IMG/VR virus record: IMGVR_UViG_3300024229_000001
Source: an uncultured virus (IMG/VR IMGVR_UViG_3300024229_000001)
Lineage: Duplodnaviria; Heunggongvirae; Uroviricota; Caudoviricetes
Length of the DNA stretch: 64,000 nucleotides
Reading direction: 5' to 3' (one strand)
Shown here: positions 1-10,900 of the stretch, piece after piece
Layout: each line of letters starts with the position of its first letter
Position numbering within the stretch: the first letter of the stretch is position 1
Notes under the pieces: model-generated
The model's database searches: none
Told to the model about the DNA's origin: nothing
What the model saw: the letters and a program-made list of their open reading frames with translations, nothing else
Made by a program: the position numbers and the translations under genes

Positions 1-25
1 CGAGGTAGCATAAAAAAAATGTGAT

Positions 26-71
26 AAAGTGCATTTTAGGGGTTTACAATCAGATCTTAATATGTTATACT
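26..71 (+). promoter_or_regulatory. Early sigma70-type promoter with upstream palindrome
   Basis: TTTACA (43-48), 17 bp, TGn-TATACT (66-71); AAAGTGCATTTT at 26-37; RBS AAGGAG before ATG 97. Confidence 0.8.
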
Positions 72-96
72 AGATATATCAAAAGGAGATAAACAC

Positions 97-303
97 ATGC
101 TACTACCATACGGTGAAATGATCAAGAACGACGTAATCGAAGCTTTCAACGCTGCTGTGACTAACCCTGAGAACATCAACTCTTCAGGTGGTATCAATTG
201 GAACTTTGTAGATGCTGACTTGCAAATCGATCTAGGTGTGATCTATAGCTCAGATTACCTGAACGATTGCTTTGAAGTTCTTGTTGATAACCACTTCGCT
301 TAA
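97..303 (+). CDS. Hypothetical early protein (68 aa)
   Basis: ORF with AGGAG RBS directly behind an early promoter. Confidence 0.75.
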   Translation: MLLPYGEMIKNDVIEAFNAAVTNPENINSSGGINWNFVDADLQIDLGVIYSSDYLNDCFEVLVDNHFA

Positions 304-314
304 GGATAAACACT

Positions 315-398
315 ATGAAAAACTTTATATTTGATCTTACATCCGGTGCCATGAACTTCACGTTACTAACAGGATTGGTATTCTATATAGTCTCATAG
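315..398 (+). CDS. Small hydrophobic peptide (27 aa, MKNFIFDLTSGAMNFTLLTGLVFYIVS)
   Basis: Read manually; AAGGA RBS; below ORF-track cutoff. Confidence 0.4.
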   Translation: MKNFIFDLTSGAMNFTLLTGLVFYIVS

Positions 399-405
399 AC
401 TATTT

Positions 406-667
406 ACTACTATATAGTACGAGCAAAGAAACGTGACAGGTAGGTATAGAACCCGTAAAATCCTGGTGAGGGCCTGAGTGGTGACTACTATATAGTATTA
501 AGGAGTTTATAAAGAATACGTAAGTCCTGGAGCCAGACCATTATACGATATAAATCGGAGTGCTCCAGGCAGTACCACTAGTGACAGCCCCCTGTTTATA
601 CTGGAGAAAAAAAGGCCATAGTGGTACGTGGGGGTCTAGCGTCCAGCGGTAATTCAGAGGAAATACC
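406..667. ncRNA. Putative structured non-coding element (ncRNA or origin-like)
   Basis: GC-richer intergenic stretch; stems 526-533/562-569 and 572-580/619-627; palindrome TACTATATAGTA at 408-419 and 486-497. Confidence 0.45.
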
Positions 668-689
668 TTTTTATATAGAGGAGGAAGAC

Positions 690-878
690 ATGTATCAGAT
701 CACTGGTTATACTATAGATAGATCTATACGGCGTGAGTTTGAGTGTCTCTTTGATGCTATAGAGTTTAAGGATCAATTGGATGCTTTATACTATCATGTT
801 GTATGGAAAGAGTATAGTAGAAGGCCATATGATATGGCCATACAGCCCGTATCAGAGAATCTCAGATTTGTTTTATAG
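690..878 (+). CDS. Hypothetical protein
   Basis: ORF 621..878; GAGGAGG RBS supports ATG 690 as the start. Confidence 0.6.
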   Translation: MYQITGYTIDRSIRREFECLFDAIEFKDQLDALYYHVVWKEYSRRPYDMAIQPVSENLRFVL

Positions 879-938
879 TATATGGCTATAAAAAATTTTC
901 TCGAGAAAAAATGTGTGAAAAACCTTTGCGAGGATAGT

Positions 939-1148
939 ATGGTACGTGTTGTACACTATGTTGGTATGGATGAATATACCTATAGAAGAGCTAGACGAGT
1001 TTGGGGTGGACCAGCTTATTATCACAAATGGAACGACGCAAGAGTTGATAGTGAAGTTTCTGAGAATGATATTGTAGTCTATGGAGATACTACTTATAGA
1101 CAATGGGTATGGGATGCCTCAGCAGTCGACAGGAGTTATACAGAGTAG
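939..1148 (+). CDS. Hypothetical protein
   Basis: ORF 882..1148; GAGGA RBS supports ATG 939. Confidence 0.6.
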   Translation: MVRVVHYVGMDEYTYRRARRVWGGPAYYHKWNDARVDSEVSENDIVVYGDTTYRQWVWDASAVDRSYTE

Positions 1149-1205
1149 CGCAGTGTAGCTTCTTGGTCTAACTTTAAATTTTAATTTCGTGCGAAAGTCG
1201 AGGAA

Positions 1206-1376
1206 ATGGAAGAATTTATCAAAGGAATGAGTGTAACAACTCTTGAGAATGTGGAACTAGTAGAAGTGGTAGATGTACCATATAATATAGATCCACAAGA
1301 GATCAATCGAAAAGCTCGAGAGTTTATGGAAAACAATCCTGAAATTATATCAACCGCAATTGAAAAGGTAAAATAG
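1206..1376 (+). CDS. Hypothetical protein (56 aa)
   Basis: Read manually (MEEFIKGMSV...IEKVK); packed against the next ORF. Confidence 0.5.
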   Translation: MEEFIKGMSVTTLENVELVEVVDVPYNIDPQEINRKAREFMENNPEIISTAIEKVK

Positions 1377-1377
1377 A

Positions 1378-1536
1378 ATGTGGATGTTATTTGTACTGAA
1401 TTTGAGTTATGAAGGAGAGCATAAAGTTACTTTCTATGATAACTATCAAACAGAATTGCAGTGTAGAATAGAAGCACTCTTACTTACCGAAGAGTTTGAT
1501 CAAGCTGAAGAAGCATTTTGTATTCAAAAGGATTAA
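1378..1536 (+). CDS. Hypothetical protein (52 aa, MWMLFVL...C...C)
   Basis: Read manually; typical small phage protein with hydrophobic N-terminus and two Cys. Confidence 0.5.
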   Translation: MWMLFVLNLSYEGEHKVTFYDNYQTELQCRIEALLLTEEFDQAEEAFCIQKD

Positions 1537-1781
1537 TCGTAACCAAGTACTGCTACTTTCTCAATTTCGTTGAATAGCATTTCTTCTTCTCTTTGTTTCC
1601 ATGCAGAATCGAATCCGGATTCATACTGATTTAAGCATCCGGATTCGTTATTCCATAGACGTTTGAAATAACTTTCATAGTAACCTTCAACTATATGGTC
1701 TGGTTCGGAGATGGGAATGAGATGGCCTTTCACTAACCAAAAAAATCTGTTAGCTTCTTTACGTACGTATGGTGAACACAT
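1533..1781 (-). CDS. Hypothetical protein
   Basis: ORF with AGAGGAG RBS before ATG 1781; near-consensus late promoter TATACATA at 1812-1819 (-). Confidence 0.65.
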   Translation of the reverse strand: MCSPYVRKEANRFFWLVKGHLIPISEPDHIVEGYYESYFKRLWNNESGCLNQYESGFDSAWKQREEEMLFNEIEKVAVLGYD

Positions 1782-1855
1782 CAAAAATACTCCTCTATAG
1801 CCATATAGTATTATGTATAGAATGTTAGCGATAACAAATGAAGGATGAAAAAAAA

Positions 1856-2374
1856 ATGTCTATAAAAATTTATGATAATGTCTTACCAGAGAATATGTTT
1901 AGAAATATTCGAGCGCATTTTACTGGTCCACTTTTCCCTTGGTATTTTAATGAAGCTGTCGTGTACTCTGATCAAAAAGAATTCGAGTCTAATCTAAATT
2001 TTCAATTTGTACATACGCTGTACAGAGATAATACAGTTCAATCACCATCATATGATATACTTCAGCCACTTTTTACTTTTATTAATCCTTTTCAGATTAT
2101 TAAACTAAAAGTAAATTGTAATCCTTATAACGATCATATATACGAAAGCGGAATGCATGTAGATATAAATCCTCCAAAATCTACAGCTGTAAATACCGCG
2201 ATATTTTATTTAAATACTAATAATGGTTATACAAAAATAGAAAAGACTGGTCAAAAAATTGAATCTATAGAAAACCGGTTAGTTGTGTTTGACTCAAAAA
2301 CAATGCATTCTGGGTCGACTACAAATGACTCTAAAGCAAGATTTGTGATTAATCTTAATTATATACCGAGATAG
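1856..2374 (+). CDS. 2OG-Fe(II) oxygenase superfamily protein
   Basis: HxD (HVD), distal H (MHSG) and R (RFVINLNY); TAIFYLNTNNGYT and NRLVVFD motifs typical of T4-like phage oxygenases. Confidence 0.8.
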   Translation: MSIKIYDNVLPENMFRNIRAHFTGPLFPWYFNEAVVYSDQKEFESNLNFQFVHTLYRDNTVQSPSYDILQPLFTFINPFQIIKLKVNCNPYNDHIYESGMHVDINPPKSTAVNTAIFYLNTNNGYTKIEKTGQKIESIENRLVVFDSKTMHSGSTTNDSKARFVINLNYIPR

Positions 2375-2392
2375 CTTTTATAATATATACTA

Positions 2393-2703
2393 TGTTAACG
2401 TTGAAGCAACGTGGACACATACTGGACTCGGGGGCGGTACCCGACGACTCCACCATAGATACACTGTCTAAAAAGGAACATTGTTCTGGGCCTGGCCAAC
2501 GAAATCTCCTATTTGAGGTTGGCAGTGTATCTTTGATGGGGTCGAAATAGGATCGACAGGTGTGAAAATGGAAGTGGAGTTAACCGGATGATCGCGTATA
2601 GATCAAAAACCATAACTGCAAACAATAACTTTGCACCTTCAGAAATCGCTCTAGCAGCATAATCTGACGGGTTGGCAACTTACCTTGGAACAGAAAAGTT
2701 GCA
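2393..2703 (+). ncRNA. ssrA: Circularly permuted (two-piece) tmRNA, alphaproteobacterial type
   Basis: T-arm TCGGG-GGCGGTA-CCCGA and CGACTCC-A-CCA (ends 2455) lie upstream of GGGGTCGAAATAGGATCGAC (starts 2538); 7-bp acceptor stem with G3:U70; tag frame 2618-2662 = ANNNFAPSEIALAA*; outer boundaries approximate. Confidence 0.93.
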
Positions 2704-2715
2704 ATTATTTTCAAA

Positions 2716-2761
2716 AAAATGCATTTTACCTATGTACATCCTCTGAGACTTATGGTATAGT
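2716..2761 (+). promoter_or_regulatory. Early promoter with palindrome
   Basis: AAAATGCATTTT (2716-2727), TGTACA (2733-2738), 17 bp, TGG-TATAGT (2756-2761). Confidence 0.8.
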
Positions 2762-2765
2762 AGTA

Positions 2766-2793
2766 CTATAATCAATGAGGAGAAACGATTATG
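2766..2793 (+). repeat. 28-bp leader repeat, copy 1
   Basis: CTATAATCAATGAGGAGAAACGATTATG, identical to 5041-5068. Confidence 0.95.
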
Positions 2794-3171
2794 ACTTACA
2801 CATTCGACGAGAACATTGTATCTGATCTTCACAAAGAAGCTTATGGCTTTCGTCCTCGTGAAGGATGGTGGAATATGTGGGCAGCTTTTAACGCTGATCA
2901 GAAGCAAGCTACATGGGATAGCTTAATTGCTGACTTGGACGATGCTATTGAGCAGCAAGAACAGCAAGAAGCTCAAGCTCTTGTTAACTTTCGTAAATTG
3001 CTTAAGACCACTATGGCTACATGTAACGTAGATTGGAAAAATGCTCTTCGCATCTTAATGGAAGCTGACACTGAGTTTACTAAAGATAGTCAAGAGTTTG
3101 ATTATTTTCTGTGGACCTACGACTTAGGCTACGAAAAGCGCAAAGAGATCTATGCCAAATTCGTGGGGTAG
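2791..3171 (+). CDS. Hypothetical early protein
   Basis: Strong RBS, behind an early promoter; SDLHKEAYGFRPR motif seen in phage early proteins. Confidence 0.8.
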   Translation: MTYTFDENIVSDLHKEAYGFRPREGWWNMWAAFNADQKQATWDSLIADLDDAIEQQEQQEAQALVNFRKLLKTTMATCNVDWKNALRILMEADTEFTKDSQEFDYFLWTYDLGYEKRKEIYAKFVG

Positions 3172-3451
3172 TCCTATAGAGATAGAGCGTAGGCGCAGAA
3201 TAAAAGTAAGTATTGCTGCCTACGCTTATGAGTTTCTCGCAGATTCAATCATGGAAGATCATGAGTTCGATCAATTATGTTTAGAAATCGATACTCAAAT
3301 AAATACAGGTAATAGAAAACTAGATACATTTTTCAAAAAAGAGTTTAATTCTGCAACAGGCTATTGGGTACATCAACATCCCGAAAAAGAAAAGCTGAAA
3401 GATCTGTATGAAAGGTACTACAAAAATGATTCAACTTCATGGATTGAATAA
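3152..3451 (+). CDS. Stand-alone NAD-dependent DNA ligase domain Ia-like protein
   Basis: AAYAYE...IMEDHEFDQL resembles the LigA Ia motif YY...isD.eYD.L. Confidence 0.6.
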   Translation: MPNSWGSPIEIERRRRIKVSIAAYAYEFLADSIMEDHEFDQLCLEIDTQINTGNRKLDTFFKKEFNSATGYWVHQHPEKEKLKDLYERYYKNDSTSWIE

Positions 3452-3668
3452 AGATCAAAGAGAAATTGCTAATATGCTCTGTGATTGCAATTCACTAGAA
3501 GAAGTTCAATTTTTGATGAAGTACCTGTTAACTGATAACGACCGTAGAACTGCATGCACGATTTTAGAGATTATTGAACAAGAGATGGCTGAAGAAGATA
3601 TTGCTACTGAAAATCTAGTAAGAATCCAGCGTCATGTCACAGAGCTATTCATGAGGTGTAGACCATGA
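3426..3668 (+). CDS. Hypothetical protein
   Basis: ORF in tightly packed operon; start uncertain (3408 or 3426). Confidence 0.6.
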   Translation: MIQLHGLNKDQREIANMLCDCNSLEEVQFLMKYLLTDNDRRTACTILEIIEQEMAEEDIATENLVRIQRHVTELFMRCRP

Positions 3669-3937
3669 TTACTGTAGAGATAGATCCAGAAGAAACATGT
3701 ATTACTATTTTGGATAATACCGCTGAGCTCGAAGATGTATCAGCAATTCTATATGATAACTATTGTCATATTCGCCAGTGGAATGAGAAGAATAAAAAGT
3801 TTGATGTAGTTACTCTGACTCCAGAAATGTATATCAAACTCATGAAATCTTTTACTCTTCCACATGGAGCATATGATATTGTATTAAGTGAGAGAGATGT
3901 AGTTAACGACGATATATACGGTATAGAACAGGATTAG
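3665..3937 (+). CDS. Hypothetical protein
   Basis: ATGA overlap with the upstream ORF. Confidence 0.65.
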   Translation: MITVEIDPEETCITILDNTAELEDVSAILYDNYCHIRQWNEKNKKFDVVTLTPEMYIKLMKSFTLPHGAYDIVLSERDVVNDDIYGIEQD

Positions 3938-3941
3938 ACTT

Positions 3942-4070
3942 ATGGTTAATAAAGAAATTCGCGAATTTGATGAAGAAGAACGTCAAAGGGCGAAAGAAAA
4001 AGAAAAAGATAATAAATCTGAAGAACCACCTGAATGGCCAGATAATCCTGTTGATGGACATGCCATATAA
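3942..4070 (+). CDS. Small charged hypothetical protein (42 aa)
   Basis: Read manually; its stop codon overlaps the late promoter. Confidence 0.4.
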   Translation: MVNKEIREFDEEERQRAKEKEKDNKSEEPPEWPDNPVDGHAI

Positions 4071-4073
4071 ATA
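4066..4073 (+). promoter_or_regulatory. T4-type late promoter (tRNA/ncRNA)
   Basis: TATAAATA ending 10 nt before tRNA-Asn. Confidence 0.75.
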
Positions 4074-4082
4074 AAGTTATAT

Positions 4083-4157
4083 TCCGGCGTAGCTCAGTGG
4101 TAGAGCAGTTGACTGTTAATCAATTTGTCGTAGGTTCGACCCCTACCGCCGGAGCCA
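4083..4157 (+). tRNA. trnN: tRNA-Asn (GTT)
   Basis: Cloverleaf: TCCGGCG/CGCCGGA acceptor, GTT anticodon, GGTTCGAC T-loop, encoded CCA. Confidence 0.97.
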
Positions 4158-4192
4158 AAGTTTTAAAGTTTCAACCCGACGGGGTTTGGAAA

Positions 4193-4368
4193 GATAGTGC
4201 AAGGAAATGCAGTTTGTAAGGACTGTAACTTGGCTAGTAGCTGTAGTGGCAGCGTATGAGCATGGAGACATGAAGATACGTATTTCGAACGTAACTGTTT
4301 GATACTAGGCGCAACCGAACGTAGAGTACTTACTAGGTTGTTGGAGGTAAACTGTAATCCTCCCTATC
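4193..4368 (+). ncRNA. Putative multi-stem ncRNA with tRNA-like topology
   Basis: Five-way junction of nested helices closed by GATAG/CTATC; no credible ORF. Confidence 0.55.
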
Positions 4369-4384
4369 ACATTAGACCACGTAT

Positions 4385-4873
4385 CTATTCTATTATGTAT
4401 CTTCTGATACCTAATGCTTTACTGGCAGGAAAATATTCTGCGGTTACTGAGTCATCTTGGTTTCCACCTATAATTAAGTAGTGCTCTTCACCGTCTATAA
4501 TATAAGACATTAAGTAAAAGCCTACATGACCCTGCCAACTAGAATTCCCTCTTGGGAATACCACAATATCCCCTAATCCTGGTTCATTCACTGTTTCTCC
4601 CCATTGTAAGAATGATCTAGCGGTTAGGGGATATTGGCTCACTGAGTCAGATCCTGGTATATCGTTTGCATGAAGTACTGCATTCACAAAAGCAGCGCAC
4701 CATTCAATCCTTGCTGGATCTACACCAAGGAATTCTCTAAGCTCAGGATTATCACGTACTTCATGTTTACCCATTAGTTGAGCTGCGTCATAAACATGGC
4801 TTTCCTCAGGGACCGCGTAAGTGGCGCATCCAGAAACAAATAGGACTAAGGCGGGAATATGTATATATCTCAT
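4385..4873 (-). CDS. TIGR02594-like NlpC/P60 (CHAP-like) cell-wall hydrolase, predicted lipoprotein
   Basis: WCAAFVN, ARSFLQWG, GDIVVF, GHVGF and GGNQ motifs; lipobox LVLFVSG-C after ATG 4873; late promoter TATAAATA at 4882-4889 (-). Confidence 0.85.
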   Translation of the reverse strand: MRYIHIPALVLFVSGCATYAVPEESHVYDAAQLMGKHEVRDNPELREFLGVDPARIEWCAAFVNAVLHANDIPGSDSVSQYPLTARSFLQWGETVNEPGLGDIVVFPRGNSSWQGHVGFYLMSYIIDGEEHYLIIGGNQDDSVTAEYFPASKALGIRRYIIE

Positions 4874-4920
4874 GTCAGCACTATTTATAAAAAAATACAA
4901 TTTGATACAAATTAATTTTT

Positions 4921-4975
4921 CCTTTAGAATCAATAGGTTACGTTTCTCCTCATCCTAAGCCATTGATTCTAAAGG
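4921..4975. repeat. 20-bp inverted repeat with 15-nt loop
   Basis: CCTTTAGAATCAATAGGTTA ... TAAGCCATTGATTCTAAAGG (18/20 complementary). Confidence 0.9.
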
Positions 4976-4991
4976 GTTTTTTATTTTAAAA

Positions 4992-5036
4992 TAAATGCAT
5001 TTTTTTGTGTACATCCTCAGAGAACGGTGGTATAAT
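4992..5036 (+). promoter_or_regulatory. Early promoter with palindrome
   Basis: AAATGCATTT (4993-5002), TGTACA (5008-5013), 17 bp, TGG-TATAAT (5031-5036). Confidence 0.85.
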
Positions 5037-5040
5037 ATAC

Positions 5041-5068
5041 CTATAATCAATGAGGAGAAACGATTATG
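5041..5068 (+). repeat. 28-bp leader repeat, copy 2
   Basis: Identical to 2766-2793. Confidence 0.95.
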
Positions 5069-5347
5069 TTGACTAAATCTGAACTGAACCGCATGGCAAC
5101 TCTGATGGCTAAAATGGAAGGTAATGACTTTTCAACTGTAGCTTCTATGTTTAAGCAAGCTCAAGGCCTTCGCCAAAAGATTGCTGCTGGAGTATTCAAG
5201 GTTGGTGACACTGTCAAGTTTGAGGCCAAAGGTCGGACACGCGAAGCAGTGGTTACTAAAGTAAATCGTAAGACAATTGCTGTTAAAGAGAACAAAGGTC
5301 TAGGCTTTGCTTGGAAAGTTTCTCCAAGTCTTTTGAAAAAAGTTTGA
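5066..5347 (+). CDS. Small basic early protein, SH3/KOW-like barrel
   Basis: FKVGDTVKF...VVTKVNRKTIAV...WKVSPSLL pattern; strong RBS. Confidence 0.75.
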   Translation: MLTKSELNRMATLMAKMEGNDFSTVASMFKQAQGLRQKIAAGVFKVGDTVKFEAKGRTREAVVTKVNRKTIAVKENKGLGFAWKVSPSLLKKV

Positions 5348-5349
5348 AA

Positions 5350-5395
5350 AAAATGCACTTTAGGGGTTTACATTCCTAGAGACTTATGGTAGAAT
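5350..5395 (+). promoter_or_regulatory. Early promoter with palindrome
   Basis: AAAATGCACTTT (5350-5361), TTTACA (5367-5372), 17 bp, TGG-TAGAAT (5390-5395). Confidence 0.8.
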
Positions 5396-5426
5396 ACCTT
5401 ATAAATTGATGATGGAGAAATACAAT

Positions 5427-5726
5427 ATGACTATGACAGCTCAACAAAAAGCAGATCGTTTGGCACTTATCAAAAAGGTAGCACAAAAGCGCGATAGTGC
5501 AGCTGCTTTCAAAAAGAAACTTGCGGCTCAAGGATCCAAAGTTCGCCGTTGGAGTGATGTTGAAGAAAAGCCTAAGCGCAAAGCTGTACAAGATGCCTTT
5601 GATAAAGAAATCGCTGGCTATGATAGTGACAACATCAACGCTTGGACTGATGCTTCTAAATACGCCAAAGAATATTATGGCGAAACTCTTCACTACACAA
5701 CTAAATTTGATAACGATTGGGATTAA
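5427..5726 (+). CDS. Hypothetical early protein
   Basis: GGAG RBS supports ATG 5427. Confidence 0.75.
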   Translation: MTMTAQQKADRLALIKKVAQKRDSAAAFKKKLAAQGSKVRRWSDVEEKPKRKAVQDAFDKEIAGYDSDNINAWTDASKYAKEYYGETLHYTTKFDNDWD

Positions 5727-5728
5727 TC

Positions 5729-5896
5729 ATGAAAAACTTTGATATAATTTTTGGTGTCTTAATGGGTTTTCTCCTTGCTATCTTTCTTATGGTAATCGCC
5801 AGTGGTGCAGTTACTACTAACTTTGAAAAATGTAGCGATCGATATAGTACATCTGACGAAGTAGTTGAATGTATGTGGTTGTTGGAGAATAACTAA
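5729..5896 (+). CDS. Small membrane protein (55 aa)
   Basis: Read manually; N-terminal TM helix, two Cys; fills the gap between neighbouring ORFs. Confidence 0.6.
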   Translation: MKNFDIIFGVLMGFLLAIFLMVIASGAVTTNFEKCSDRYSTSDEVVECMWLLENN

Positions 5897-5897
5897 T

Positions 5898-6326
5898 ATG
5901 ACTATGCATCTAGTAAGAGGTATGTCTACACTCTCTACTAAGAAGCGTAGGCAGAAAAAGAAAAATATTGATAACGCTCAAATGGAGCGTGATTGGAAAT
6001 CTTACAATAAAGATATGCGACGTAACAATTTACACTCTTGTCAGTTTAATACTTTACAAGAGTATGTTGATTATCGCATGGGCAAGGCAAAACCAAAACC
6101 AAAGGAGTTTGTACCTTATGAACCGAAAGAATCCAAACCAACTCGCTCGCCAACGAATTATCCAAGCCTCTCGACGGAAAGCATACCTGGATCAGGAGCG
6201 AAAAAAGAGTCTCCAGTCTACTCAGGAGACTACATTATCGGAATCGCGACAATGCACAAGTCAAACATCGTCCCTGTCGGAAGGGGAGATGATCCGAAAC
6301 ATTATGCGGCCATGAGGAGAAATTAA
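5898..6326 (+). CDS. Conserved T4-like hypothetical protein (GIATMHKSN motif)
   Basis: GGAG RBS; basic protein with C-terminal YSG..IIGIATMHKSNIVPV. Confidence 0.75.
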   Translation: MTMHLVRGMSTLSTKKRRQKKKNIDNAQMERDWKSYNKDMRRNNLHSCQFNTLQEYVDYRMGKAKPKPKEFVPYEPKESKPTRSPTNYPSLSTESIPGSGAKKESPVYSGDYIIGIATMHKSNIVPVGRGDDPKHYAAMRRN

Positions 6327-7112
6327 GTGATCAATAAAGCGTTTTTAGAATGGAAATTTCAAGATGATGATGGAGATGAACCTAAGTCTTTAGATCCTAA
6401 AGACATTAACATGTTTTTAGATCGCGCGATGCAGGATTGTCCTTGGCATAAAGCTATTCCTCAATATACTACTACAAAAGCTAAAAACTATATAAATCAC
6501 TGGAAAATTTGGTTTAAAGCAGCAAAGAATAACGAAGTTACTCGCGAGCAGCTTGGTCACGAATTTAATGCTGATACACGAGAAGCTAATGCTAAAAGTA
6601 TTACAGCTAAAAGATGTCCAGGCATTTTAGGAATTCTTAGTAAATCTTATATTGTTAAATCTCCAGTAGAATTTTTTGTTCATATTGAAGATGGCGAAAT
6701 TGCTTCTATTCACAACTCTGACAATCGGTTTGCACATATTGAGAGCCATAATGACACACAATATAAAATAGATGGTTTAAACTTATTTAAAAATAAAAAA
6801 AGTCTTAAAGTATCTCTTCCAGTAGCAATTAGCTGTAAATTACCATATGTGTTTTTAAATCCAGTTTTTCATAAAGATAGCGAATTAGAAGTCATTCCTG
6901 GAGTTATCGAAGATAGGTTTTTAGAAAATACTAGATTAATCGTTCATTGCTTTGTTGATACAAGTGAAGATAAGTATATTCATGTAAAAGCTGGAGACCC
7001 AATTGCTTATATGTGGTTTCCATCTAAAACGCGATTAAAGAGAAATATAAAACTAAAAGACAAAAGATATATTAAATCGTTTAATAGATCTTATGATTTT
7101 ATGGGAAAATAA
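6327..7112 (+). CDS. Hypothetical protein (beta-rich, KRCPGI motif)
   Basis: 261-aa ORF with GAGGAG RBS. Confidence 0.75.
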   Translation: MINKAFLEWKFQDDDGDEPKSLDPKDINMFLDRAMQDCPWHKAIPQYTTTKAKNYINHWKIWFKAAKNNEVTREQLGHEFNADTREANAKSITAKRCPGILGILSKSYIVKSPVEFFVHIEDGEIASIHNSDNRFAHIESHNDTQYKIDGLNLFKNKKSLKVSLPVAISCKLPYVFLNPVFHKDSELEVIPGVIEDRFLENTRLIVHCFVDTSEDKYIHVKAGDPIAYMWFPSKTRLKRNIKLKDKRYIKSFNRSYDFMGK

Positions 7113-7147
7113 TAATGTCAATTCCAAACGTACGGAGAATTTATAGT

Positions 7148-7417
7148 ATGGAACTAACTCAAGAAAATATGCTCGCAGCTTTGCGAGAAAGTGAATGTGA
7201 AGTAACCTTTACAAAAGTAAATGGTGACACTCGCGTAATGAAATGCACTTTGAATATGGATATTATTCCAAGCAATAAGATTCCAAAAGGCGATGACACC
7301 CCTGAACTTCGCGAAGGGTTAGATTCGATCTTGAAAGCTATTCGTGTATTTGATACTGGTCTAGAAGATTGGCGATCATTCAAAGTTGAGACTGTGAAAA
7401 ACTTTGTAAAAAGTTGA
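7148..7417 (+). CDS. WYL_2/Sm-like SH3 beta-barrel protein
   Basis: VTFTKVNGDTRVMKCTL...VFD...WRSFK motif; GGAG RBS before ATG 7148. Confidence 0.7.
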   Translation: MELTQENMLAALRESECEVTFTKVNGDTRVMKCTLNMDIIPSNKIPKGDDTPELREGLDSILKAIRVFDTGLEDWRSFKVETVKNFVKS

Positions 7418-7426
7418 AATTAACTG

Positions 7427-7462
7427 TGTACATTCTCAGTTACTTATGGTAGTATATAAATA
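7427..7462 (+). promoter_or_regulatory. Overlapping early and late promoters
   Basis: TGTACA (7427-7432), 17 bp, TAGTAT (7450-7455); TATAAATA (7455-7462). Confidence 0.7.
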
Positions 7463-7485
7463 TACTCACTAAGGAGAAACACCCT

Positions 7486-8613
7486 ATGGCAGCTCGTAAA
7501 AAAATCACTGTTAGAGCAAGACCTAAAACTGGTATTGCTGCAGCTCCAATGAACGATGGATTTGATAGGTTTAAATATTATATTCATCAGGACGTTGATC
7601 GTAAAGAGCTTTCTTCAATTACTAAGCAGTATGTTAAGCAGACTTTTTCTAAAGATGATGCTCGGGCTATCTTAGCTACTCCTGAGTATAATTTCTATAT
7701 GTATACCTTACATGCTTCAATTATATACTGGACTCAAATTTTACAACAAGAATTACCAAAAAAGTATGGCTTGGAAAATGGTGTAGAACGCGTTAATGAA
7801 TTCTATACTAATCTCATTTCAATTGGTAAAAAGATCCTTGAGGAGAAAGCACGTGCTGACACAGCAGCGTCAAATGTCGTTGTCTTAACCCCTCAACAGC
7901 GTCTTTTCAATAAAATTCAAGAAACTGTTATGACTGACTTGGATGATTTGGAAGACGCTTGGATTGACGGCGAAGAACCAGAATTTAATATGTACAACTG
8001 CTTCAAGCTACATGGTTTGAGCGGGTCACATACAGCTCCTGTGCTGAAAAGACTTGAAGGTTGGCTATTAGATTACGAGGACGCTTATCATAAACGTTGT
8101 GAACAAGCAGTTGAAGGCTATTCACATGTTAAGCGGACGGTTCTTCGCCGTCGCATCAAGTTGATTGAAGAAATGATCGCTGATCTAGATAGAGTCAAAG
8201 CTTCTGCCAAAGCTACACGTAAGACTCGTACACCTAAACCGCGAGCTGCTGATAAACAAGTGGCTAAGGTTAAGTACCTTAAAGAAGATATGAGCTTTAA
8301 GATTACTTCTATTCTGCCAATTACTCTTGTTGGTGCAATGAGACTCTACGTCTTTAATGTCAAAACAAAAGAATTGACTGAATATATTTCAAGTGCTGCA
8401 AAAGGATTTGAAGTAAAAGGCACAACTCTACAAAATGTAGGAGAAGAATCTCGTAAAATTAAACTAAGAAAACCAGACGAGTTTCTTCCAATCGTGCAGA
8501 ATAAAACACCAAAACAGGTAGATACATTATGGCAAACTTTGACTACAAAAACAAGCTCACCAAATGGGCGACTCAATTCGGATTGTGTCTTATTGCGAGC
8601 GCTGGATCGGTAA
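7486..8613 (+). CDS. Hypothetical protein (375 aa)
   Basis: Long ORF, AAGGAG RBS, dedicated promoters. Confidence 0.85.
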   Translation: MAARKKITVRARPKTGIAAAPMNDGFDRFKYYIHQDVDRKELSSITKQYVKQTFSKDDARAILATPEYNFYMYTLHASIIYWTQILQQELPKKYGLENGVERVNEFYTNLISIGKKILEEKARADTAASNVVVLTPQQRLFNKIQETVMTDLDDLEDAWIDGEEPEFNMYNCFKLHGLSGSHTAPVLKRLEGWLLDYEDAYHKRCEQAVEGYSHVKRTVLRRRIKLIEEMIADLDRVKASAKATRKTRTPKPRAADKQVAKVKYLKEDMSFKITSILPITLVGAMRLYVFNVKTKELTEYISSAAKGFEVKGTTLQNVGEESRKIKLRKPDEFLPIVQNKTPKQVDTLWQTLTTKTSSPNGRLNSDCVLLRALDR

Positions 8614-9056
8614 GCGCTCAAAGTATTAGTACAAATATTACTAATAGTGAATTTCAATGCTTAATTCAAAACGGATATTTTGAAGCTCGTTCAGACGGAT
8701 ATGCTTCAGTGATGGGTGTTACTAATGTGGTACTCAATCGAACTGAAGATCCTCGATATCCCGACAGTATCTGTGGAGTAGTCTATCAAGGTCGGCAAGA
8801 CTCAAACGGTAATATGATTCGTAATCAGTGTCAATTTAGCTGGTATTGCGATGGTAAATCCGATCGAATGATTAATACAGAATTAGAAAATAAAGTTAAG
8901 ATAGTGGTTCGTGAAACACTTGCTTTATGGTATAACAATATTGATATTACAGAAGGGGCAACACATTATCATGCTAACTATGTTCGACCAACTTGGGCCA
9001 AAACCCTCAACTACACTACACAAATCGGAACTCACAAATACTATCGTTGGAACTAA
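8529..9056 (+). CDS. SleB-like cell wall hydrolase (Hydrolase_2)
   Basis: YFEARS, VVLNR, YPDSICGVVYQ, CQFSW, GATHYHA, IGTHKYY motifs; signal-peptide-like N-terminus. Confidence 0.9.
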   Translation: MANFDYKNKLTKWATQFGLCLIASAGSVSAQSISTNITNSEFQCLIQNGYFEARSDGYASVMGVTNVVLNRTEDPRYPDSICGVVYQGRQDSNGNMIRNQCQFSWYCDGKSDRMINTELENKVKIVVRETLALWYNNIDITEGATHYHANYVRPTWAKTLNYTTQIGTHKYYRWN

Positions 9057-9063
9057 TTCAGCA

Positions 9064-9297
9064 ATGTTAGAAGGTAAGATACTCACAAAGAAAAGATTTT
9101 CTACTGTGGTAGAAAAGAAAGTAAAGCAGTTTCAGCTTTCTTATTTAGACGCAATCCTTGAAGTTTGTGAGGAACTTGAGTTTCCAGTAGAAGACGTAGG
9201 AAGAGTGATTACTCCTAGTCTTAAAGAAAAAGTTACTGCTGAAGCCCAACGTCTTCGAATGATTAAAGACTCTAACACAGCAACTTTGCCAATATGA
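9064..9297 (+). CDS. gp33: Late promoter transcription co-activator gp33
   Basis: SYLDAILEVCEE...LKEKVTAEA motif; synteny 33-59-32. Confidence 0.85.
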   Translation: MLEGKILTKKRFSTVVEKKVKQFQLSYLDAILEVCEELEFPVEDVGRVITPSLKEKVTAEAQRLRMIKDSNTATLPI

Positions 9298-9884
9298 TTA
9301 TGGAACCATACGACGCTTTTCGCTTTTACCAATCTATGAAGTTACATTTTGAGTCTGATAGTTATGACGCTATCAAATACAATTATAAGACTTCTGTAAA
9401 GCCACAATCTTTTTGGAAACGAAAAGACAAATATTTCTTTGCAAAGGTTGGTAGAAAATTTGATAGTGCTAAAGAACTAATCAACTATTATGCAGCGCAC
9501 TTCATTCAAGATAAGACTTGGATTGGCGATATGATTGAAGATGAAGACATCTATAAGTCTTATCAAAAGCGTATGCAGTCATTAGGTTATACCTTTGAAA
9601 ATGATATGACTACACTTGCTGATCTAGGTAATTTAGATCAAGTGTTGAATTCATCAGATGGTCATCCTCATATCATCACGGCTTACCTTGGTGGTGATAT
9701 AAATATAGAGTCAGTAGTAATTCTAAATCAACTTACAGGATTTATGAATCGTGCTAATAAAGAAATAAGCGAAACTATTGTGTGGCCAGATGTCTCACGA
9801 AAGGTTCGTAAATATTCACCTTTTGTTCAATATGATTTGCAAAAAGCTAAAAATATTGTGCTTAAGGTGTTTACATCAGAGTAA
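9294..9884 (+). CDS. gp59: Helicase loader gp59
   Basis: KLHF...YDAIKYN...KRKDKYFFAK motif; synteny. Confidence 0.85.
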   Translation: MIMEPYDAFRFYQSMKLHFESDSYDAIKYNYKTSVKPQSFWKRKDKYFFAKVGRKFDSAKELINYYAAHFIQDKTWIGDMIEDEDIYKSYQKRMQSLGYTFENDMTTLADLGNLDQVLNSSDGHPHIITAYLGGDINIESVVILNQLTGFMNRANKEISETIVWPDVSRKVRKYSPFVQYDLQKAKNIVLKVFTSE

Positions 9885-9898
9885 TTTTGATGTATAAT
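9870..9898 (+). promoter_or_regulatory. Early promoter of gp32
   Basis: TTTACA (9870-9875), 17 bp, TATAAT (9893-9898). Confidence 0.8.
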
Positions 9899-9955
9899 AC
9901 TTATATTATGTGAATGTGGATAATTCAGTAAATACAAAAACATACGGAGAAATAT

Positions 9956-10867
9956 ATGTCTTTTTCAAATCTAAAACGTAACCGCAGTTCTATCGATTCA
10001 CTTACCAAAGCGGCAGAAGCCGCCGGTGGTGGTGGACAACAAAAGCAATCTTATGCAGATGAGCGTTTGTGGAAACCAACAGTCGATAAAGCAGGTAATG
10101 GTTACGCAGTAATTCGTTTCCTACCAGCACCCGAAGGCGAGGATCTCCCTTGGGTTCGTTATTGGGATCACGGTTTCCAAGGTCCATCAGGTCTTTGGTA
10201 TATCGAAAATTCTCTTACATCAATTGGTCAAAATGATCCAGTATCTGAAATGAATTCAGTGCTGTGGAATTCTGGTCGTGAAGAGGATAAACAAACTGCT
10301 CGTGATCGTAAGCGCCGCTTGCATTATGTAGCAAATATTCAAGTCGTATCTGATCCAGGTAACCCAGACAATGAAGGTAAGGTATTCCTTTATAAGTTTG
10401 GTAAAAAGATCTTTGATAAGATTATGGATGTTATGCAGCCGCAGTTTGCCGATGAAGATCCGGTGAATCCATTTGATTTCTGGGATGGAGCGAATTTCAA
10501 ACTTAAGATTCAGCAGGTTGCGGGTTATCGTAACTATGACAAATCTGAGTTTGCAAATGCCTCTGCTTTGTCTGATGACGATGAAAAGCTAGAAGGTATT
10601 TACAATCGTTTGTATAGCTTGCAGGATTTCCTCGATCCTAAAAACTATAAAACATACGATGAACTTAAAACTAAGTTGAACCGTGTCCTTGGCCAAGAGG
10701 ATATGGTAATGACTACAGCGGAGTCTGTATCTCTTGATGAGCCAGCTCCATCTCGTTATGAACCAGTAGAAGCATCACCTGGAGTAACAAGTAACTCAGT
10801 ACCAGAAACATCTAATGATGAAGATGATACAATGAGTTATTTCCAAAAATTGGCTGCAGGCCAATAA
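9956..10867 (+). CDS. gp32: Single-stranded DNA-binding protein gp32
   Basis: DERLWKP.VDKAGNGYAVIRFLP, GKVFLYKFGKKIFDKI, acidic C-tail. Confidence 0.97.
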   Translation: MSFSNLKRNRSSIDSLTKAAEAAGGGGQQKQSYADERLWKPTVDKAGNGYAVIRFLPAPEGEDLPWVRYWDHGFQGPSGLWYIENSLTSIGQNDPVSEMNSVLWNSGREEDKQTARDRKRRLHYVANIQVVSDPGNPDNEGKVFLYKFGKKIFDKIMDVMQPQFADEDPVNPFDFWDGANFKLKIQQVAGYRNYDKSEFANASALSDDDEKLEGIYNRLYSLQDFLDPKNYKTYDELKTKLNRVLGQEDMVMTTAESVSLDEPAPSRYEPVEASPGVTSNSVPETSNDEDDTMSYFQKLAAGQ

Positions 10868-10870
10868 GAG

Positions 10871-10899
10871 AAAAGGGACCCTTCGGGGTCCCTTTTTTT
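10871..10899. terminator. Rho-independent terminator, probably bidirectional
   Basis: AAAAGGGACCC-TTCG-GGGTCCCTTTTTTT between convergent genes. Confidence 0.9.
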
Positions 10900-10900
10900 A

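What the first reader, a model, noticed from the sequence alone, without database searches (positions are those of the whole stretch)
4193..4368. Oversized tRNA-topology RNA directly downstream of tRNA-Asn
Seen: closing stem GATAG/CTATC (4193-4197/4364-4368), then a 2-nt TG linker. Arm 1 is CAAG/CTTG (4200-4203/4229-4232) with inner GCAGTT/GACTGT, followed by 1 nt. Arm 2 is CTAGTA/TACTAG (4234-4239/4303-4308), enclosing GGCAG/CTGTT and CGTAT-GAG-CATG-GAGA-CATG-AAG-ATACG (GNRA loop). Arm 3 is GCAACC/GGTTGT (4311-4316/4336-4341). Arm 4 is GGAGG/CCTCC (4343-4347/4359-4363), stacked directly on the closing stem. The linker lengths match a long-variable-arm tRNA cloverleaf with expanded arms. An extra hairpin AACCC-GACG-GGGTT lies at 4173-4186, and the region is likely co-transcribed from the late promoter at 4066. 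Inference: a novel ncRNA, such as a tRNA mimic or decoy for anticodon nucleases. I cannot assign it to RNase P, SRP or 6S.
Basis: partly seen in the sequence, partly recalled or inferred. Interest (0 to 1): 0.75.

Follow-up and report, generated by a model that had tools for sequence, protein, structure and literature searches.

The report
Divergent manA RNA beside phage tRNA
The flagged stretch is a real, intricately folded non-coding RNA, but it is a divergent relative of the already described phage "manA" RNA rather than a new tRNA mimic; here it sits as a separate RNA gene behind a tRNA instead of in front of a protein gene.

Summary
One, GGCAG/CTGTT, is not supported by comparison with relatives.

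The element at 4169-4373 (+), including the "extra" hairpin, aligns end to end with Rfam manA RNA (RF01745). It scores 48.4 bits, below the 55.2 gathering cut-off, with E 2.4e-9 on the whole window.

It belongs to an abundant clade in marine T4-like phage contigs: at least 120 IMG/VR loci and 68 distinct RNAs. A sister clade scores 75-85 bits, and a model built from both clades finds canonical manA reciprocally. Covariation supports the fold: 60 of 62 pairs show double changes.

In 69 of 72 distinct relatives the RNA starts just after a sigma-70-type promoter. In 33 of 51 a terminator-like hairpin follows within 31-41 nt. In this window and in L255 it follows tRNA genes instead, and the next gene here is convergent.

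I read it as a free-standing, probably trans-acting manA-family RNA. The tRNA-mimic/decoy idea has no support. This scan has already found manA-type RNAs, some beside tRNAs, on other DNA. Function remains unknown.

The parts
4066..4073 (+). TATAAATA box (T4-type late-promoter consensus, recalled), 10 nt before tRNA-Asn. A sigma-70-like TGGACA-17-TATATT match overlaps it at 4055-4083.
   Evidence: 21 matches in the window against 8.8 +/- 3.2 expected, 0 of 100 shuffles reach 21; most lie on the + strand, several just ahead of long ORFs. One search gives the sigma-70-like match (10 of 12). Promoter activity was not tested.
4083..4157 (+). tRNA-Asn (GTT) with encoded CCA.
   Evidence: ARAGORN; Rfam tRNA 71.3 bits.
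4158..4168 (+). A/U-rich spacer between the tRNA and the RNA. Nearly the same spacer follows a different tRNA (Leu) in L255.
   Evidence: Upstream sequences (window, L255, L340); tRNA identities.
4169..4191 (+).
   Evidence: Rfam manA alignment positions 1-22. All 8 modelled pairs show double changes in A3.
4193..4368 (+). Core multi-helix junction closed by GAUAG/CUAUC (4193-4197/4364-4368).
   Evidence: The closing stem is invariant in clade A; all 5 of its pairs show double changes across the family (84.6% of cells paired).
4200..4232 (+). Arm 1: CAAG/CUUG outer stem, inner stem 4209-4214/4221-4226, loop UGUAAG (4215-4220).
   Evidence: Inner stem: 5 of 6 pairs with double changes and 6 of 6. 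The loop is complementary to 4329-4333.
4234..4308 (+). Arm 2: outer stem CUAGUA/UACUAG enclosing three hairpins. These are 4240-4250 (GUAGUG loop), 4252-4281 (extended stem with GAGA tetraloop at 4265-4268) and 4285-4302 (GUAACU loop).
   Evidence: helices are 88-100% paired with double changes. The Rfam structure line shows the same three hairpins.
4311..4341 (+). Arm 3: GCAACC/GGUUGU outer stem. Its interior holds CUUAC (4329-4333), complementary to GUAAG of the arm-1 loop (4216-4220).
   Evidence: Outer stem: 5 of 6 pairs with double changes. Loop-loop duplex of 5 bp, -4.1 kcal/mol; across the family cognate pairs average -4.62 against -2.38 for non-cognate, 0 of 2000 permutations reach it.
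4343..4363 (+). Arm 4: GGAGG/CCUCC with an 11-nt loop (the GGUA...AAUCC signature of manA), stacked on the closing stem.
   Evidence: 100% paired, 3 of 5 pairs with double changes. This is the best-conserved block in the Rfam alignment.
4369..4373 (+). 3' tail covered by the Rfam manA model.
   Evidence: the match spans 4169-4373.
4385..4933 (-). Convergent CHAP-domain (cell-wall hydrolase-like) ORF. Its stop lies 12 nt from the RNA's 3' end, so the RNA is not a 5' leader here.
   Evidence: ORF; phrog_1259, 2.8e-20; CHAP 25.5 bits, just under the cut-off of 26.

Best explanation
Window 4169-4373 (+) encodes a divergent member of the manA RNA family (Rfam RF01745). It is a roughly 205-nt RNA with a 5' GACG hairpin and a closing stem around four arms, and arm 2 carries three hairpins.

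It belongs to a clade ('A') common in uncultured marine T4-like myophages. The major capsid protein here is 62-66% identical to those of Methylophilales phage Melnitz and Pelagibacter phages Mosig and HTVC008M.

In most relatives the RNA is its own transcription unit: a sigma-70-type promoter, the RNA, then an intrinsic-terminator-like hairpin. In this phage, and in L255 where it lies inside an array of at least 7 tRNAs, it has no promoter of its own. It follows tRNA-Asn after an 11-nt A/U spacer.

Inferred: here it is transcribed together with the tRNA from the TATAAATA or sigma-70-like site at 4055-4083, cut free by the host's tRNA-processing nucleases, and acts in trans as a stable folded RNA.

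Inferred by analogy with the cryo-EM preprint on canonical manA RNAs: co-evolving loop-loop contacts let it form a defined tertiary or homo-oligomeric particle. Its cellular target is unknown.

Shown: family homology, the fold, and the gene organisation. Not shown: processing, trans action and oligomerisation.
For: Homology:
- Full-length Rfam match 1-192/192, 48.4 bits, E 2.7e-11 on 701 nt and 2.4e-9 on 64 kb.
- Sister clade B, which shares the subgroup motif, scores 75.5-85.4 bits in 6 of 6 loci tested.
- A model built from clades A and B finds canonical manA loci full length at 18-50 bits.

Fold:
- On the model-fitted alignment, 87.0% of cells are paired against 61.3% shuffled, 60 of 62 pairs show double changes, and covariation is 0.589 against 0.173 (0 of 500). 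Slid controls are at most 0.099.
- On a plain MAFFT alignment, 80.1% are paired against 66.9%, and covariation is 0.343 against 0.151.

Separate gene:
- 69 of 72 distinct loci have TTGAC-N15-19-TAnnnT ending 4-10 nt before the 5' hairpin. The 3 without (window, L340 with the same sequence, L255) follow a tRNA.
- 33 of 51 have a hairpin plus T-run 31-41 nt after the RNA.
- The usual downstream gene (38 of 51) has its own leader motif, Rfam freshwater-2, beyond that terminator, and it is absent from this window.
- In the window the next gene is convergent.
- There is no cognate-specific complementarity between the RNA ends and the terminator: 333 of 2000 and 193 of 2000 permutations reach the observed value.

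Loop contacts:
- Arm-1 loop against arm-3 interior: cognate -4.62, non-cognate -2.38 kcal/mol, 0 of 2000.
- Arm-4 loop against arm-3 interior: -3.96 against -2.57, 0 of 2000.
- The preprint 10.64898/2026.07.01.735769 (sections 7-8 and passages read) reports decamers and a 60-mer held together by L5-L7', L8-L9' and L3-L8' kissing loops.

Presence in RNA libraries:
- Identical contigs cover the RNA in 4 of 4 metatranscriptome runs, and some run from inside the tRNA through the RNA.
Against: - The Rfam score is below the curated cut-off. So are 11 of 14 other clade-A loci (28.5-50.4 bits), and 3 of 14 give no hit at E <= 0.01.
- A promoter, a folded RNA and then a terminator is also the classic layout of a transcription-attenuating riboswitch. 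My anti-terminator test is crude.
- In Mosig, the manA copy lies 23 nt upstream of a same-strand gene. In L261/G039 a clade-B copy lies about 27-52 nt upstream of one (my arithmetic). Both are 5'-UTR-like positions.
- The contig data cannot show transcription, RNA ends or RNA stability, and DNA can be present in RNA libraries.
- The permutation tests on loops do not correct for relatedness. One negative control (L5 against arm 3) also gave 3 of 2000, with a small effect (-2.88 against -2.59). L5 against L7 was weak (86 of 2000).
- For the window's own sub-clade I found no convincing partner for the arm-4 loop.
- Oligomerisation has been shown only for other manA sequences, in vitro and at high RNA concentration.
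Confidence: 0.6

Rival explanations
1. It is a cis-acting regulator (riboswitch-type aptamer), as Rfam and Weinberg et al. 2010 class manA. On this reading, relatives use the RNA to sense a ligand and control read-through of the terminator into the downstream gene. The window copy would be a displaced or differently wired version.
For: - Weinberg et al. 2010 (PMC2864571, manA section and table read) rate manA as cis-regulatory and a probable riboswitch.
- The promoter-RNA-terminator-gene order holds in 33 of 51 relatives, and 38 of 51 share the same downstream gene.
- The Mosig and L261/G039 copies lie a few tens of nt upstream of same-strand genes.
- Among canonical manA loci, 42 of 86 have a promoter-like site and only 12-14 of 86 a terminator-like site, which fits a leader.
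Against: - In the window no same-strand gene follows. The next ORF of at least 60 aa on + starts 697 nt away, behind a convergent gene.
- In L255 the RNA lies between tRNAs.
- The terminators stand 10-15 nt clear of the closing stem and show no cognate complementarity to the RNA.
- The common downstream gene carries its own freshwater-2 leader after the terminator.
- The downstream genes are functionally unrelated: an unknown protein, Hsp20, CHAP, and a tail-fibre-like protein.
- No ligand is known.
Confidence: 0.2
2. It acts in trans but as a monomer, binding a host or phage protein or a small molecule (a 6S-like sponge or scaffold). On this reading the conserved loop-loop pairings are intramolecular pseudoknots, not contacts between copies.
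For: - The evidence for a separate gene is the same as for the best explanation.
- Weinberg et al. drew a possible intramolecular pseudoknot in manA (legend of Figure 2).
- Covariation cannot distinguish pairing within one molecule from pairing between molecules.
Against: The cryo-EM preprint reports that all five manA constructs examined form pentamer-based assemblies through exactly such loop contacts. No partner protein is suggested by conserved neighbouring genes.
Confidence: 0.15
3. One reading: an oversized tRNA mimic that decoys anticodon nucleases or other tRNA-binding factors.
For: - The junction linkers are 2 nt, 1 nt, 2 nt, 1 nt and 0 nt. These resemble the spacing in a long-variable-arm tRNA (tRNA numbering recalled).
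- The RNA sits next to tRNA genes here and in L255.
Against: - No tRNA detector or tRNA-clan model matches 4169-4373, even at E <= 10.
- The arm in the 'anticodon' position is a three-hairpin junction with conserved GURGUG, GNRA and ACYR-type loops.
- There is an extra 5' hairpin outside the closing stem and no CCA-like 3' end.
- A tRNA lies within 100 nt in only 10 of 240 loci. My rough estimate is that chance alone gives about 3% for a phage with a handful of tRNAs.
Confidence: 0.04

Closest known systems
manA RNA motif (Rfam RF01745; Weinberg et al. 2010, PMC2864571)
   Same: - Helix-for-helix the same architecture, with a full-length model match.
- Shared sequence signatures: the GACG 5' hairpin, GUG after the closing stem, a GNRA-capped hairpin, and the GGUA...AAUCC loop.
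- Covarying helices and covarying loop-loop complementarity.
- Carried by marine T4-like phages.
   Different: - Scores below the gathering cut-off (48.4 against 55.2 bits).
- Loop GUAGUG replaces GUGGUG, with a matching C-to-U change in the partner loop.
- The middle hairpin of arm 2 is lengthened by GAG-CAUG-GAGA-CAUG-AAG.
- This clade is mostly a promoter-to-terminator unit (33 of 51 with a terminator-like site, against 12-14 of 86 canonical loci).
- Here it follows a tRNA and precedes a convergent gene, so it is not a 5' UTR.
- The carrier resembles pelagimyophages rather than cyanophages.
manA RNA assemblies solved by cryo-EM (bioRxiv 10.64898/2026.07.01.735769)
   Same: Same family. The loops that the preprint names as kissing partners (L5-L7', L8-L9', L3-L8', and a GNRA loop L6) have counterparts here, by my own assignment of helix numbers. 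Loop complementarity co-varies across the family.
   Different: None of the solved constructs is from this clade as far as I can tell; the sequences are in closed supplements. Assembly of this RNA is untested. The preprint shows in-vitro behaviour only and gives no biological function.
Small stable RNAs of the phage T4 tRNA cluster (species 1 and 2, genes rnaC/rnaD; recalled, no call)
   Same: It works like them in layout: a non-tRNA stable RNA encoded on the same strand among phage tRNA genes, expected to be released by tRNA-processing enzymes, with unknown function.
   Different: No sequence or structure relation was tested. The T4 RNAs are smaller, and I know of no evidence that they belong to manA.
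freshwater-2 RNA (Rfam RF02980)
   Same: It travels with this clade. It lies about 70-100 nt downstream of the RNA in many relatives, scoring above its own cut-off in 5 of 20 loci scanned and weaker in 7 more.
   Different: It is a separate 70-85-nt element beyond the terminator that leads the unknown downstream gene. It is not present in the window.

Membership tests
manA RNA (Rfam RF01745) | Covariance-model score at or above the curated gathering score (55.2 bits) | tested here: not met
   48.4 bits; E 2.7e-11 on 701 nt, 2.4e-9 on 64 kb. No hit in gathering mode.
manA RNA (Rfam RF01745) | All model helices present: 5' hairpin, closing stem, arm 1, three-hairpin arm 2, arm 3, arm 4 | tested here: met
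   The match covers model positions 1-192 of 192. Each helix is recovered and paired in relatives.
manA RNA (Rfam RF01745) | Conserved sequence blocks (GACG loop, GUG after the closing stem, GURGUG loop, GNRA hairpin, GGUA..AAUCC loop) | tested here: met
   Alignment to the consensus and invariant columns. Deviations: GUAGUG in place of GUGGUG, and U in place of a conserved A in the arm-4 loop.
manA RNA (Rfam RF01745) | Helices supported by compensatory changes | tested here: met
   39 of 63 pairs on the MAFFT alignment and 60 of 62 on the model-fitted alignment. Shuffled and slid controls score far lower. The fitted alignment leans towards the model.
manA RNA (Rfam RF01745) | Homology chain to sequences that pass the cut-off | tested here: met
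   Clade B, which shares the 18-base subgroup motif, scores 75.5-85.4 bits in 6 of 6 loci. Model R1 finds canonical loci full length. Mosig scores 64 bits with Rfam and 60.4 with R1 at the same place.
manA RNA (Rfam RF01745) | Position in the 5' UTR of a protein gene (the basis of the 'Cis-reg' label) | tested here: not met
   The next gene is convergent; the nearest + ORF of at least 60 aa starts 697 nt away.
manA RNA (Rfam RF01745) | Loop-loop pairing (the 'pseudoknot?' of 2010; kissing loops in the 2026 preprint) | tested here: inconclusive
   A 5-bp GUAAG/CUUAC duplex in the window, and family-wide cognate complementarity (0 of 2000). One control was also low, the test does not correct for phylogeny, and pairing within and between molecules cannot be separated.
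manA RNA (Rfam RF01745) | Homo-oligomer formation | not testable with these tools
   Needs SEC, native gel or cryo-EM. Only the preprint's constructs were examined.
tRNA / tRNA-like element | Recognised by tRNA detectors (cloverleaf with D, anticodon and T arms) | tested here: not met
   ARAGORN finds only tRNA-Asn at 4083-4157. There is no tRNA-clan match in 4169-4373 at E <= 10.
tRNA / tRNA-like element | Single anticodon-type stem-loop in the second arm | tested here: not met
   Arm 2 is a junction of three covarying hairpins.
tRNA / tRNA-like element | Junction linker lengths like a class II tRNA | tested here: met
   Linkers of 2, 1, 2, 1 and 0 nt read. This is a resemblance only; the tRNA numbering is recalled.
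Transcription-attenuating riboswitch | Expression platform that competes with the aptamer (terminator/anti-terminator overlap) | tested here: inconclusive
   Terminator-like hairpins follow in 33 of 51 relatives. No cognate complementarity to the RNA's 3' or 5' end was found (333 of 2000; 193 of 2000). The window has no terminator-like site in 1500-6000.
Transcription-attenuating riboswitch | Known ligand and functionally coherent regulated genes | not testable with these tools
   No ligand is known. The downstream genes are an unknown protein (38 of 51), Hsp20, CHAP and tail-fibre-like proteins.

The most novel reading that the evidence does not exclude
The whole manA family, including this sub-threshold clade, may not be a riboswitch at all. 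It may be a phage-made, trans-acting RNA particle. On this reading it is expressed as its own early gene or cut out of tRNA arrays by the host's tRNA-processing enzymes. It then self-assembles in the infected cell through the co-evolving arm-1/arm-3/arm-4 loop contacts into a pentamer-based oligomer or cage, which sequesters or scaffolds some host component in SAR11-type and other marine hosts.
Probability: 0.3. Interest if true: 0.75.

Novelty: new variant of a known kind. Interest (0 to 1): 0.4.

Why it matters
manA has been an orphan "riboswitch candidate" since 2010. A 2026 preprint reports that it builds RNA-only cages in vitro, but nobody knows what it does.

This window and its relatives add three things:
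- A large clade, at least 120 IMG/VR loci, that Rfam's cut-off misses.
- Carriage by T4-like phages close to those of SAR11 and OM43 bacteria, not only cyanophages. Cultured Pelagibacter phage Mosig has an unannotated copy scoring 64 bits. The pelagimyophage survey PMC7029224 (passages read) reported finding no riboswitches.
- Gene layouts that are hard to reconcile with a leader function and point to a free RNA: its own promoter and terminator, or a place in a tRNA array, and here a convergent neighbour.

This gives concrete constructs for asking whether the RNA assembles and what it binds in vivo. Mosig with Pelagibacter ubique HTCC1062 is a culturable system.

Tried and rejected
- blastn of 4160-4380 against 50,697 phage records found no match. 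Megablast of 1-12000 found only the tRNA.
- The window's own assembly is not held. The nearest record, G001, does not cover this region.
- An exact 15-mer from the arm-4 loop gave 21 loci, but only 1 of the 20 scanned (L019, identical) holds the RNA. L020 was not scanned.
- The genome search with RF01745 on 50 of the 80 records carrying the CHAP-like neighbour found 4 of 50. Its first look misses copies: G046 and G049 hold the subgroup motif yet gave none. I did not use it for absence. The other 30 records were not searched.
- RNAalifold on the MAFFT alignment paired the closing-stem 5' strand with the wrong partner. I replaced it with a structure written from the Rfam alignment.
- My inner helix of arm 3 (4321-4324/4330-4333) is paired in only 44.5-51.1% of cells. 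I dropped it in favour of the arm-1-loop pairing.
- The anti-terminator search was negative. A first version timed out.
- Column-wise counting of the loop-loop pairs was not attempted, because the loops fall in unaligned insert columns. I used duplex energies with permuted partners instead, after dropping 6 poorly aligned ids (L111, L118, L123, L176, L226, L227).
- Metatranscriptome contigs show presence only. They give no ends, strand or level. Depth differences and contig breaks at 4096-4099 are not evidence.
- Weinberg 2010 supplements were searched for a statement on tRNA neighbours, and none was found in the text held. The preprint's supplements are closed.
- The unknown downstream protein of relatives has no Pfam or PHROG family, and I did not pursue it.
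- Melnitz: only a 12.3-bit, E 0.07 Rfam hit and nothing with R1. I do not count it.
Full report
**1. What is there**

I read from the sequence: the closing stem GATAG/CTATC (4193-4197/4364-4368), the TG linker, CAAG/CTTG with inner GCAGTT/GACTGT, CTAGTA/TACTAG, the long hairpin capped by GAGA (4265-4268), GCAACC/GGTTGT, and GGAGG/CCTCC abutting the closing stem. The upstream hairpin AACCC-GACG-GGGTT and the TATAAATA box at 4066-4073 are also there.

ARAGORN and Rfam place tRNA-Asn(GTT) at 4083-4157. They also place a permuted alpha-type tmRNA at 2351-2705.

The + strand of 4193-4368 folds to -51 kcal/mol, against -42.8 +/- 3.5 for 200 shuffles (z -2.38; 2 shuffles fold as well). The - strand is unremarkable (z -1.32).

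**2. Identity**

In gathering mode Rfam reports nothing here. With E-value thresholds, 4169-4373 (+) matches manA RNA (RF01745) over the whole model, 1-192 of 192. The score is 48.4 bits against a gathering score of 55.2. E is 2.7e-11 on 701 nt and 2.4e-9 on the whole window.

Its structure line shows the closing stem, arm 1, an arm 2 that encloses three hairpins, arm 3 and arm 4. By the curators' cut-off the window RNA is therefore not a member, so I tested homology in other ways.

**3. Relatives**

- blastn against cultured phages finds nothing.
Most are canonical manA. Two, L177 and L200, are 92-94% identical to the window RNA.

From that second set I aligned 68 distinct RNAs, including the window's (A2). 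They fall into two clades:
- Clade A: 49 RNAs, closing stem GAUAG/CUAUC, includes the window.
- Clade B: 19 RNAs, with a different, fully compensated closing stem.

Scanned with Rfam, clade B scores 75.5-85.4 bits in 6 of 6 loci, well above the cut-off. Clade A scores 28.5-50.4 bits in 11 of 14 loci and gives no hit at E <= 0.01 in 3 of 14.

A covariance model built from A2 (R1) finds canonical manA loci full length at 18-50 bits. It finds exactly one copy in the 64-kb window.

Clade A is thus a divergent branch of the manA family that the curated threshold leaves out.

**4. The fold**

On the plain MAFFT alignment, the structure transferred from the Rfam alignment gives:
- 80.1% of cells paired, against 66.9% in shuffles.
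- 39 of 63 pairs with double changes.
- Covariation 0.343 against 0.151 (0 of 500 shuffles reach it).
- 0.077-0.114 when the partners are slid by 1-3 columns.

On the model-fitted alignment of 87 distinct sequences, including canonical ones, the figures are 87.0% against 61.3% paired, 60 of 62 pairs with double changes, covariation 0.589 against 0.173, and at most 0.099 for slid partners. That alignment leans towards the model, so the MAFFT result is the fairer one.

- The helix GGCAG/CTGTT (4248-4252/4295-4299) is broken at its central pair in 44 of 68 sequences and has one double-change pair. Hairpins 4240-4250 (GUAGUG loop) and 4285-4302 (GUAACU loop) covary instead.
- The interior of arm 3 has no conserved local helix; it is paired in 44.5-51.1% of cells.

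**5. Loop-loop contacts**

The arm-1 loop GUAAG (4216-4220) is complementary to CUUAC (4329-4333) inside arm 3 (5 bp, -4.1 kcal/mol). Other sub-clades carry different complementary pairs at the same places, as read: ACAGA/UCUGU, GUAGA/UCUAC, ACAUA/UAUGU, GCAG/CUGC. Canonical manA carries GGCAU/AUGCC or GGAAU/AUUCC.

I used duplex energies with partners permuted among unique combinations, on 82 sequences after dropping 6 badly aligned ids:

| Pairing | Cognate (kcal/mol) | Non-cognate (kcal/mol) | Permutations reaching observed |
|---|---|---|---|
| Arm-1 loop x arm-3 interior | -4.62 | -2.38 | 0 of 2000 |
| Arm-4 loop x arm-3 interior | -3.96 | -2.57 | 0 of 2000 |
| L5 x L7 | -2.28 | -1.88 | 86 of 2000 |
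| Control: arm-4 loop x arm-1 loop | -0.31 | -0.73 | 1957 of 2000 |
| Control: L5 x arm 3 | -2.88 | -2.59 | 3 of 2000 |

The second control is also low, with a tiny effect, so relatedness inflates these counts. The effect sizes, not the counts, carry the argument.

The preprint on manA assemblies (10.64898/2026.07.01.735769; sections 7-8 and passages read) reports pentamer-based decamers and a 60-mer. These are held by L5-L7', L8-L9' and L3-L8' kissing loops and a GNRA-receptor contact. By my own numbering of helices the co-evolving loops here are those loops. Covariation cannot say whether the contacts are within or between molecules.

For the window's own sub-clade I found no good partner for the arm-4 loop.

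**6. Genomic setting**

The window is a T4-like myophage. It encodes gp32-like SSB, baseplate hub and wedge, sheath, portal, scaffold, major head protein and large terminase. Its major head protein is 62-66% identical to those of Methylophilales phage Melnitz and Pelagibacter phages Mosig and HTVC008M, and about 60% identical to those of cyanomyophages. The alpha-type tmRNA hints at an alphaproteobacterial host; this is an inference.

Mosig carries an unannotated manA (Rfam 64 bits, R1 60.4 bits) between Mosig_00142 and a rubrerythrin gene. HTVC008M has a weak hit at the matching place upstream of gp32 (25.9 and 17.4 bits). Melnitz has none worth counting.

In the papers I searched I found no mention of manA in pelagimyophages. 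The pelagimyophage survey PMC7029224 (passages read) states that Riboswitch Scanner found no regulatory RNAs.

**7. Gene organisation**

- *Promoter.* Of 72 distinct clade A/B loci with enough flank, 69 have TTGAC-N15-19-TAnnnT ending 4-10 nt before the 5' hairpin, usually behind an A-rich tract and the previous gene's terminator. The three exceptions follow a tRNA: the window, L340 with the same sequence, and L255.
- *Terminator.* Of 51 distinct loci with downstream flank, 33 have a stable hairpin plus T-run ending 31-41 nt after the closing stem, 4 have one at 61-102 nt, and 14 (including the window) have none by my criterion.
- *Downstream gene.* It is the same unknown 120-150-aa protein in 38 of 51 loci. 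That gene has its own leader, Rfam freshwater-2 (RF02980), beyond the terminator. It is not in this window.
- *Anti-terminator.* Complementarity between the RNA's ends and the terminators is no better for cognate than for permuted pairs: 333 of 2000 and 193 of 2000.
- *Canonical manA.* These loci differ. 42 of 86 have a promoter-like site at a sharply peaked distance, and only 12-14 of 86 have a terminator-like site. This fits the published 5'-UTR picture better.
- *L255.* This RNA is close to the window's and shares the same 5' hairpin and nearly the same A/U spacer. It sits inside a same-strand array of at least 7 tRNAs, with tRNAs on both sides.
- *tRNA neighbours overall.* A tRNA lies within 100 nt in only 10 of 240 sampled loci, always on the same strand. 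Many of those loci have short flanks. tRNA adjacency is an occasional arrangement, not a family trait.

**8. The window's transcription**

TATAAATA (the T4 late-promoter consensus, recalled) is enriched in the window: 21 matches against 8.8 +/- 3.2 expected, with 0 of 100 shuffles reaching 21. One copy sits 10 nt before tRNA-Asn, overlapped by a 10-of-12 sigma-70-like match.

No terminator-like site lies in 1500-6000. The next gene, 4385-4933, is a convergent CHAP-like ORF.

Contigs from four metatranscriptome libraries cover the RNA without differences, and some run from inside the tRNA to 50-260 nt past the RNA. This shows presence in RNA libraries and contiguity. It does not show transcription, ends or stability.

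**9. Reading**

I put family homology at about 0.9. It rests on the full-length model match, the bridge through clade B, reciprocal detection and the shared covarying architecture.

I put "a separate, trans-acting RNA rather than a leader" at about 0.6-0.65 for this clade. It has its own promoter and terminator, the neighbouring gene has its own leader motif, it is placed in a tRNA array, and here its neighbour is convergent.

Release by tRNA-processing enzymes and self-assembly are inferences. The second rests on the preprint and on the co-evolving loops.

The riboswitch reading stays alive at about 0.2, because promoter-aptamer-terminator is its classic layout and some copies (Mosig, L261/G039) lie directly upstream of genes.

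The tRNA-mimic reading has only the linker-length resemblance in its favour.

**10. Novelty and earlier notes**

The family has been known since 2010. The Rfam 14 paper (PMC7779021, passages read) reports 48 significant pairs for the ZWD manA alignment.

Notes from this scan show that manA-type RNAs, including copies between phage tRNAs (e1-6017216) and beside phage tmRNA and tRNA genes (e1-6060687), were flagged before on other DNA. Those notes are unchecked AI leads, and part of the first later fell. My own count (10 of 240) agrees that only a minority abut tRNAs.

What this case adds:
- A large sub-threshold clade.
- Carriage in pelagimyophage-like phages.
- A predominantly promoter-to-terminator layout.

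I therefore rate it a new variant of a known kind, of moderate interest.

Noticed in passing
window 2351-2705 (+): Phage-encoded permuted (two-piece) alpha-type tmRNA. It scores 117.9 bits on Rfam alpha_tmRNA and 117.8 on tmRNA_permuted; ARAGORN gives tag peptide ANNNFAPSEIALAA. It starts inside the 3' end of a DNA endonuclease V-like ORF (1838-2374). Together with tRNA-Asn and the manA-type RNA it forms an RNA-gene island.
   Followed up: no
L261 750-832 (-), L245 1705-1787 (+), L229 1223-1305 (-), L249 1706-1780 (+), L232 118-188 (-), and 7 weaker: Rfam freshwater-2 RNA (RF02980) lies about 70-100 nt downstream of the manA-type RNA and just ahead of a conserved unknown 120-150-aa gene. It follows an ATAAATA-like box, and its last hairpin abuts a GGA..ATG start region. 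5 of 20 loci score above its cut-off and 7 more score weaker.
   Followed up: partly
L228 842-1273 (-) and 37 other loci: The conserved protein downstream of the RNA in 38 of 51 relatives has no Pfam or PHROG family and is absent from this window.
   Followed up: partly
L356 (Mosig MT647606.1 108164-108374, -) and L357 (HTVC008M NC_020484.1 5030-5223, +): Cultured Pelagibacter phage Mosig has an unannotated manA RNA (64 bits) in the gap before a 'putative rubrerythrin' gene near gp32. HTVC008M has a weak hit (25.9 and 17.4 bits) overlapping the small hypothetical gene gp008, just upstream of gp32.
   Followed up: partly
window 4385-4933 (-); L261 857-1345 (-): The CHAP-like gene next to the RNA recurs beside manA-type RNAs in two different arrangements. 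It is convergent here. In L261/G039 it lies a few tens of nt downstream on the same strand (about 27 nt by my arithmetic, 52 nt by the ORF call). Only 4 of 50 records carrying this gene gave a manA hit, by a search that misses copies.
   Followed up: partly
L232 610-657 (-), L241 1743-1790 (-): Glutamine riboswitch aptamers (RF01739, 49.2 bits) lie within about 150-350 nt of clade-B manA RNAs, in uncultured contigs related to this non-cyanophage window.
   Followed up: no
window, 21 sites such as 7455, 29296, 47624, 53230, 55553, 57122, 60689 (+): TATAAATA is enriched 2.4-fold. Several copies lie just upstream of long structural-gene ORFs, which fits T4-type late promoters.
   Followed up: partly
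window 29341-36468 (+): A very long ORF (2375 aa) lies within the baseplate and tail-fibre gene block. It was not analysed.
   Followed up: no
L282 657-1088 (-): In one relative the gene after the RNA is an Hsp20/IbpA-type chaperone (Pfam HSP20, 65.7 bits). This echoes the ibpA association noted for manA in 2010.
   Followed up: no
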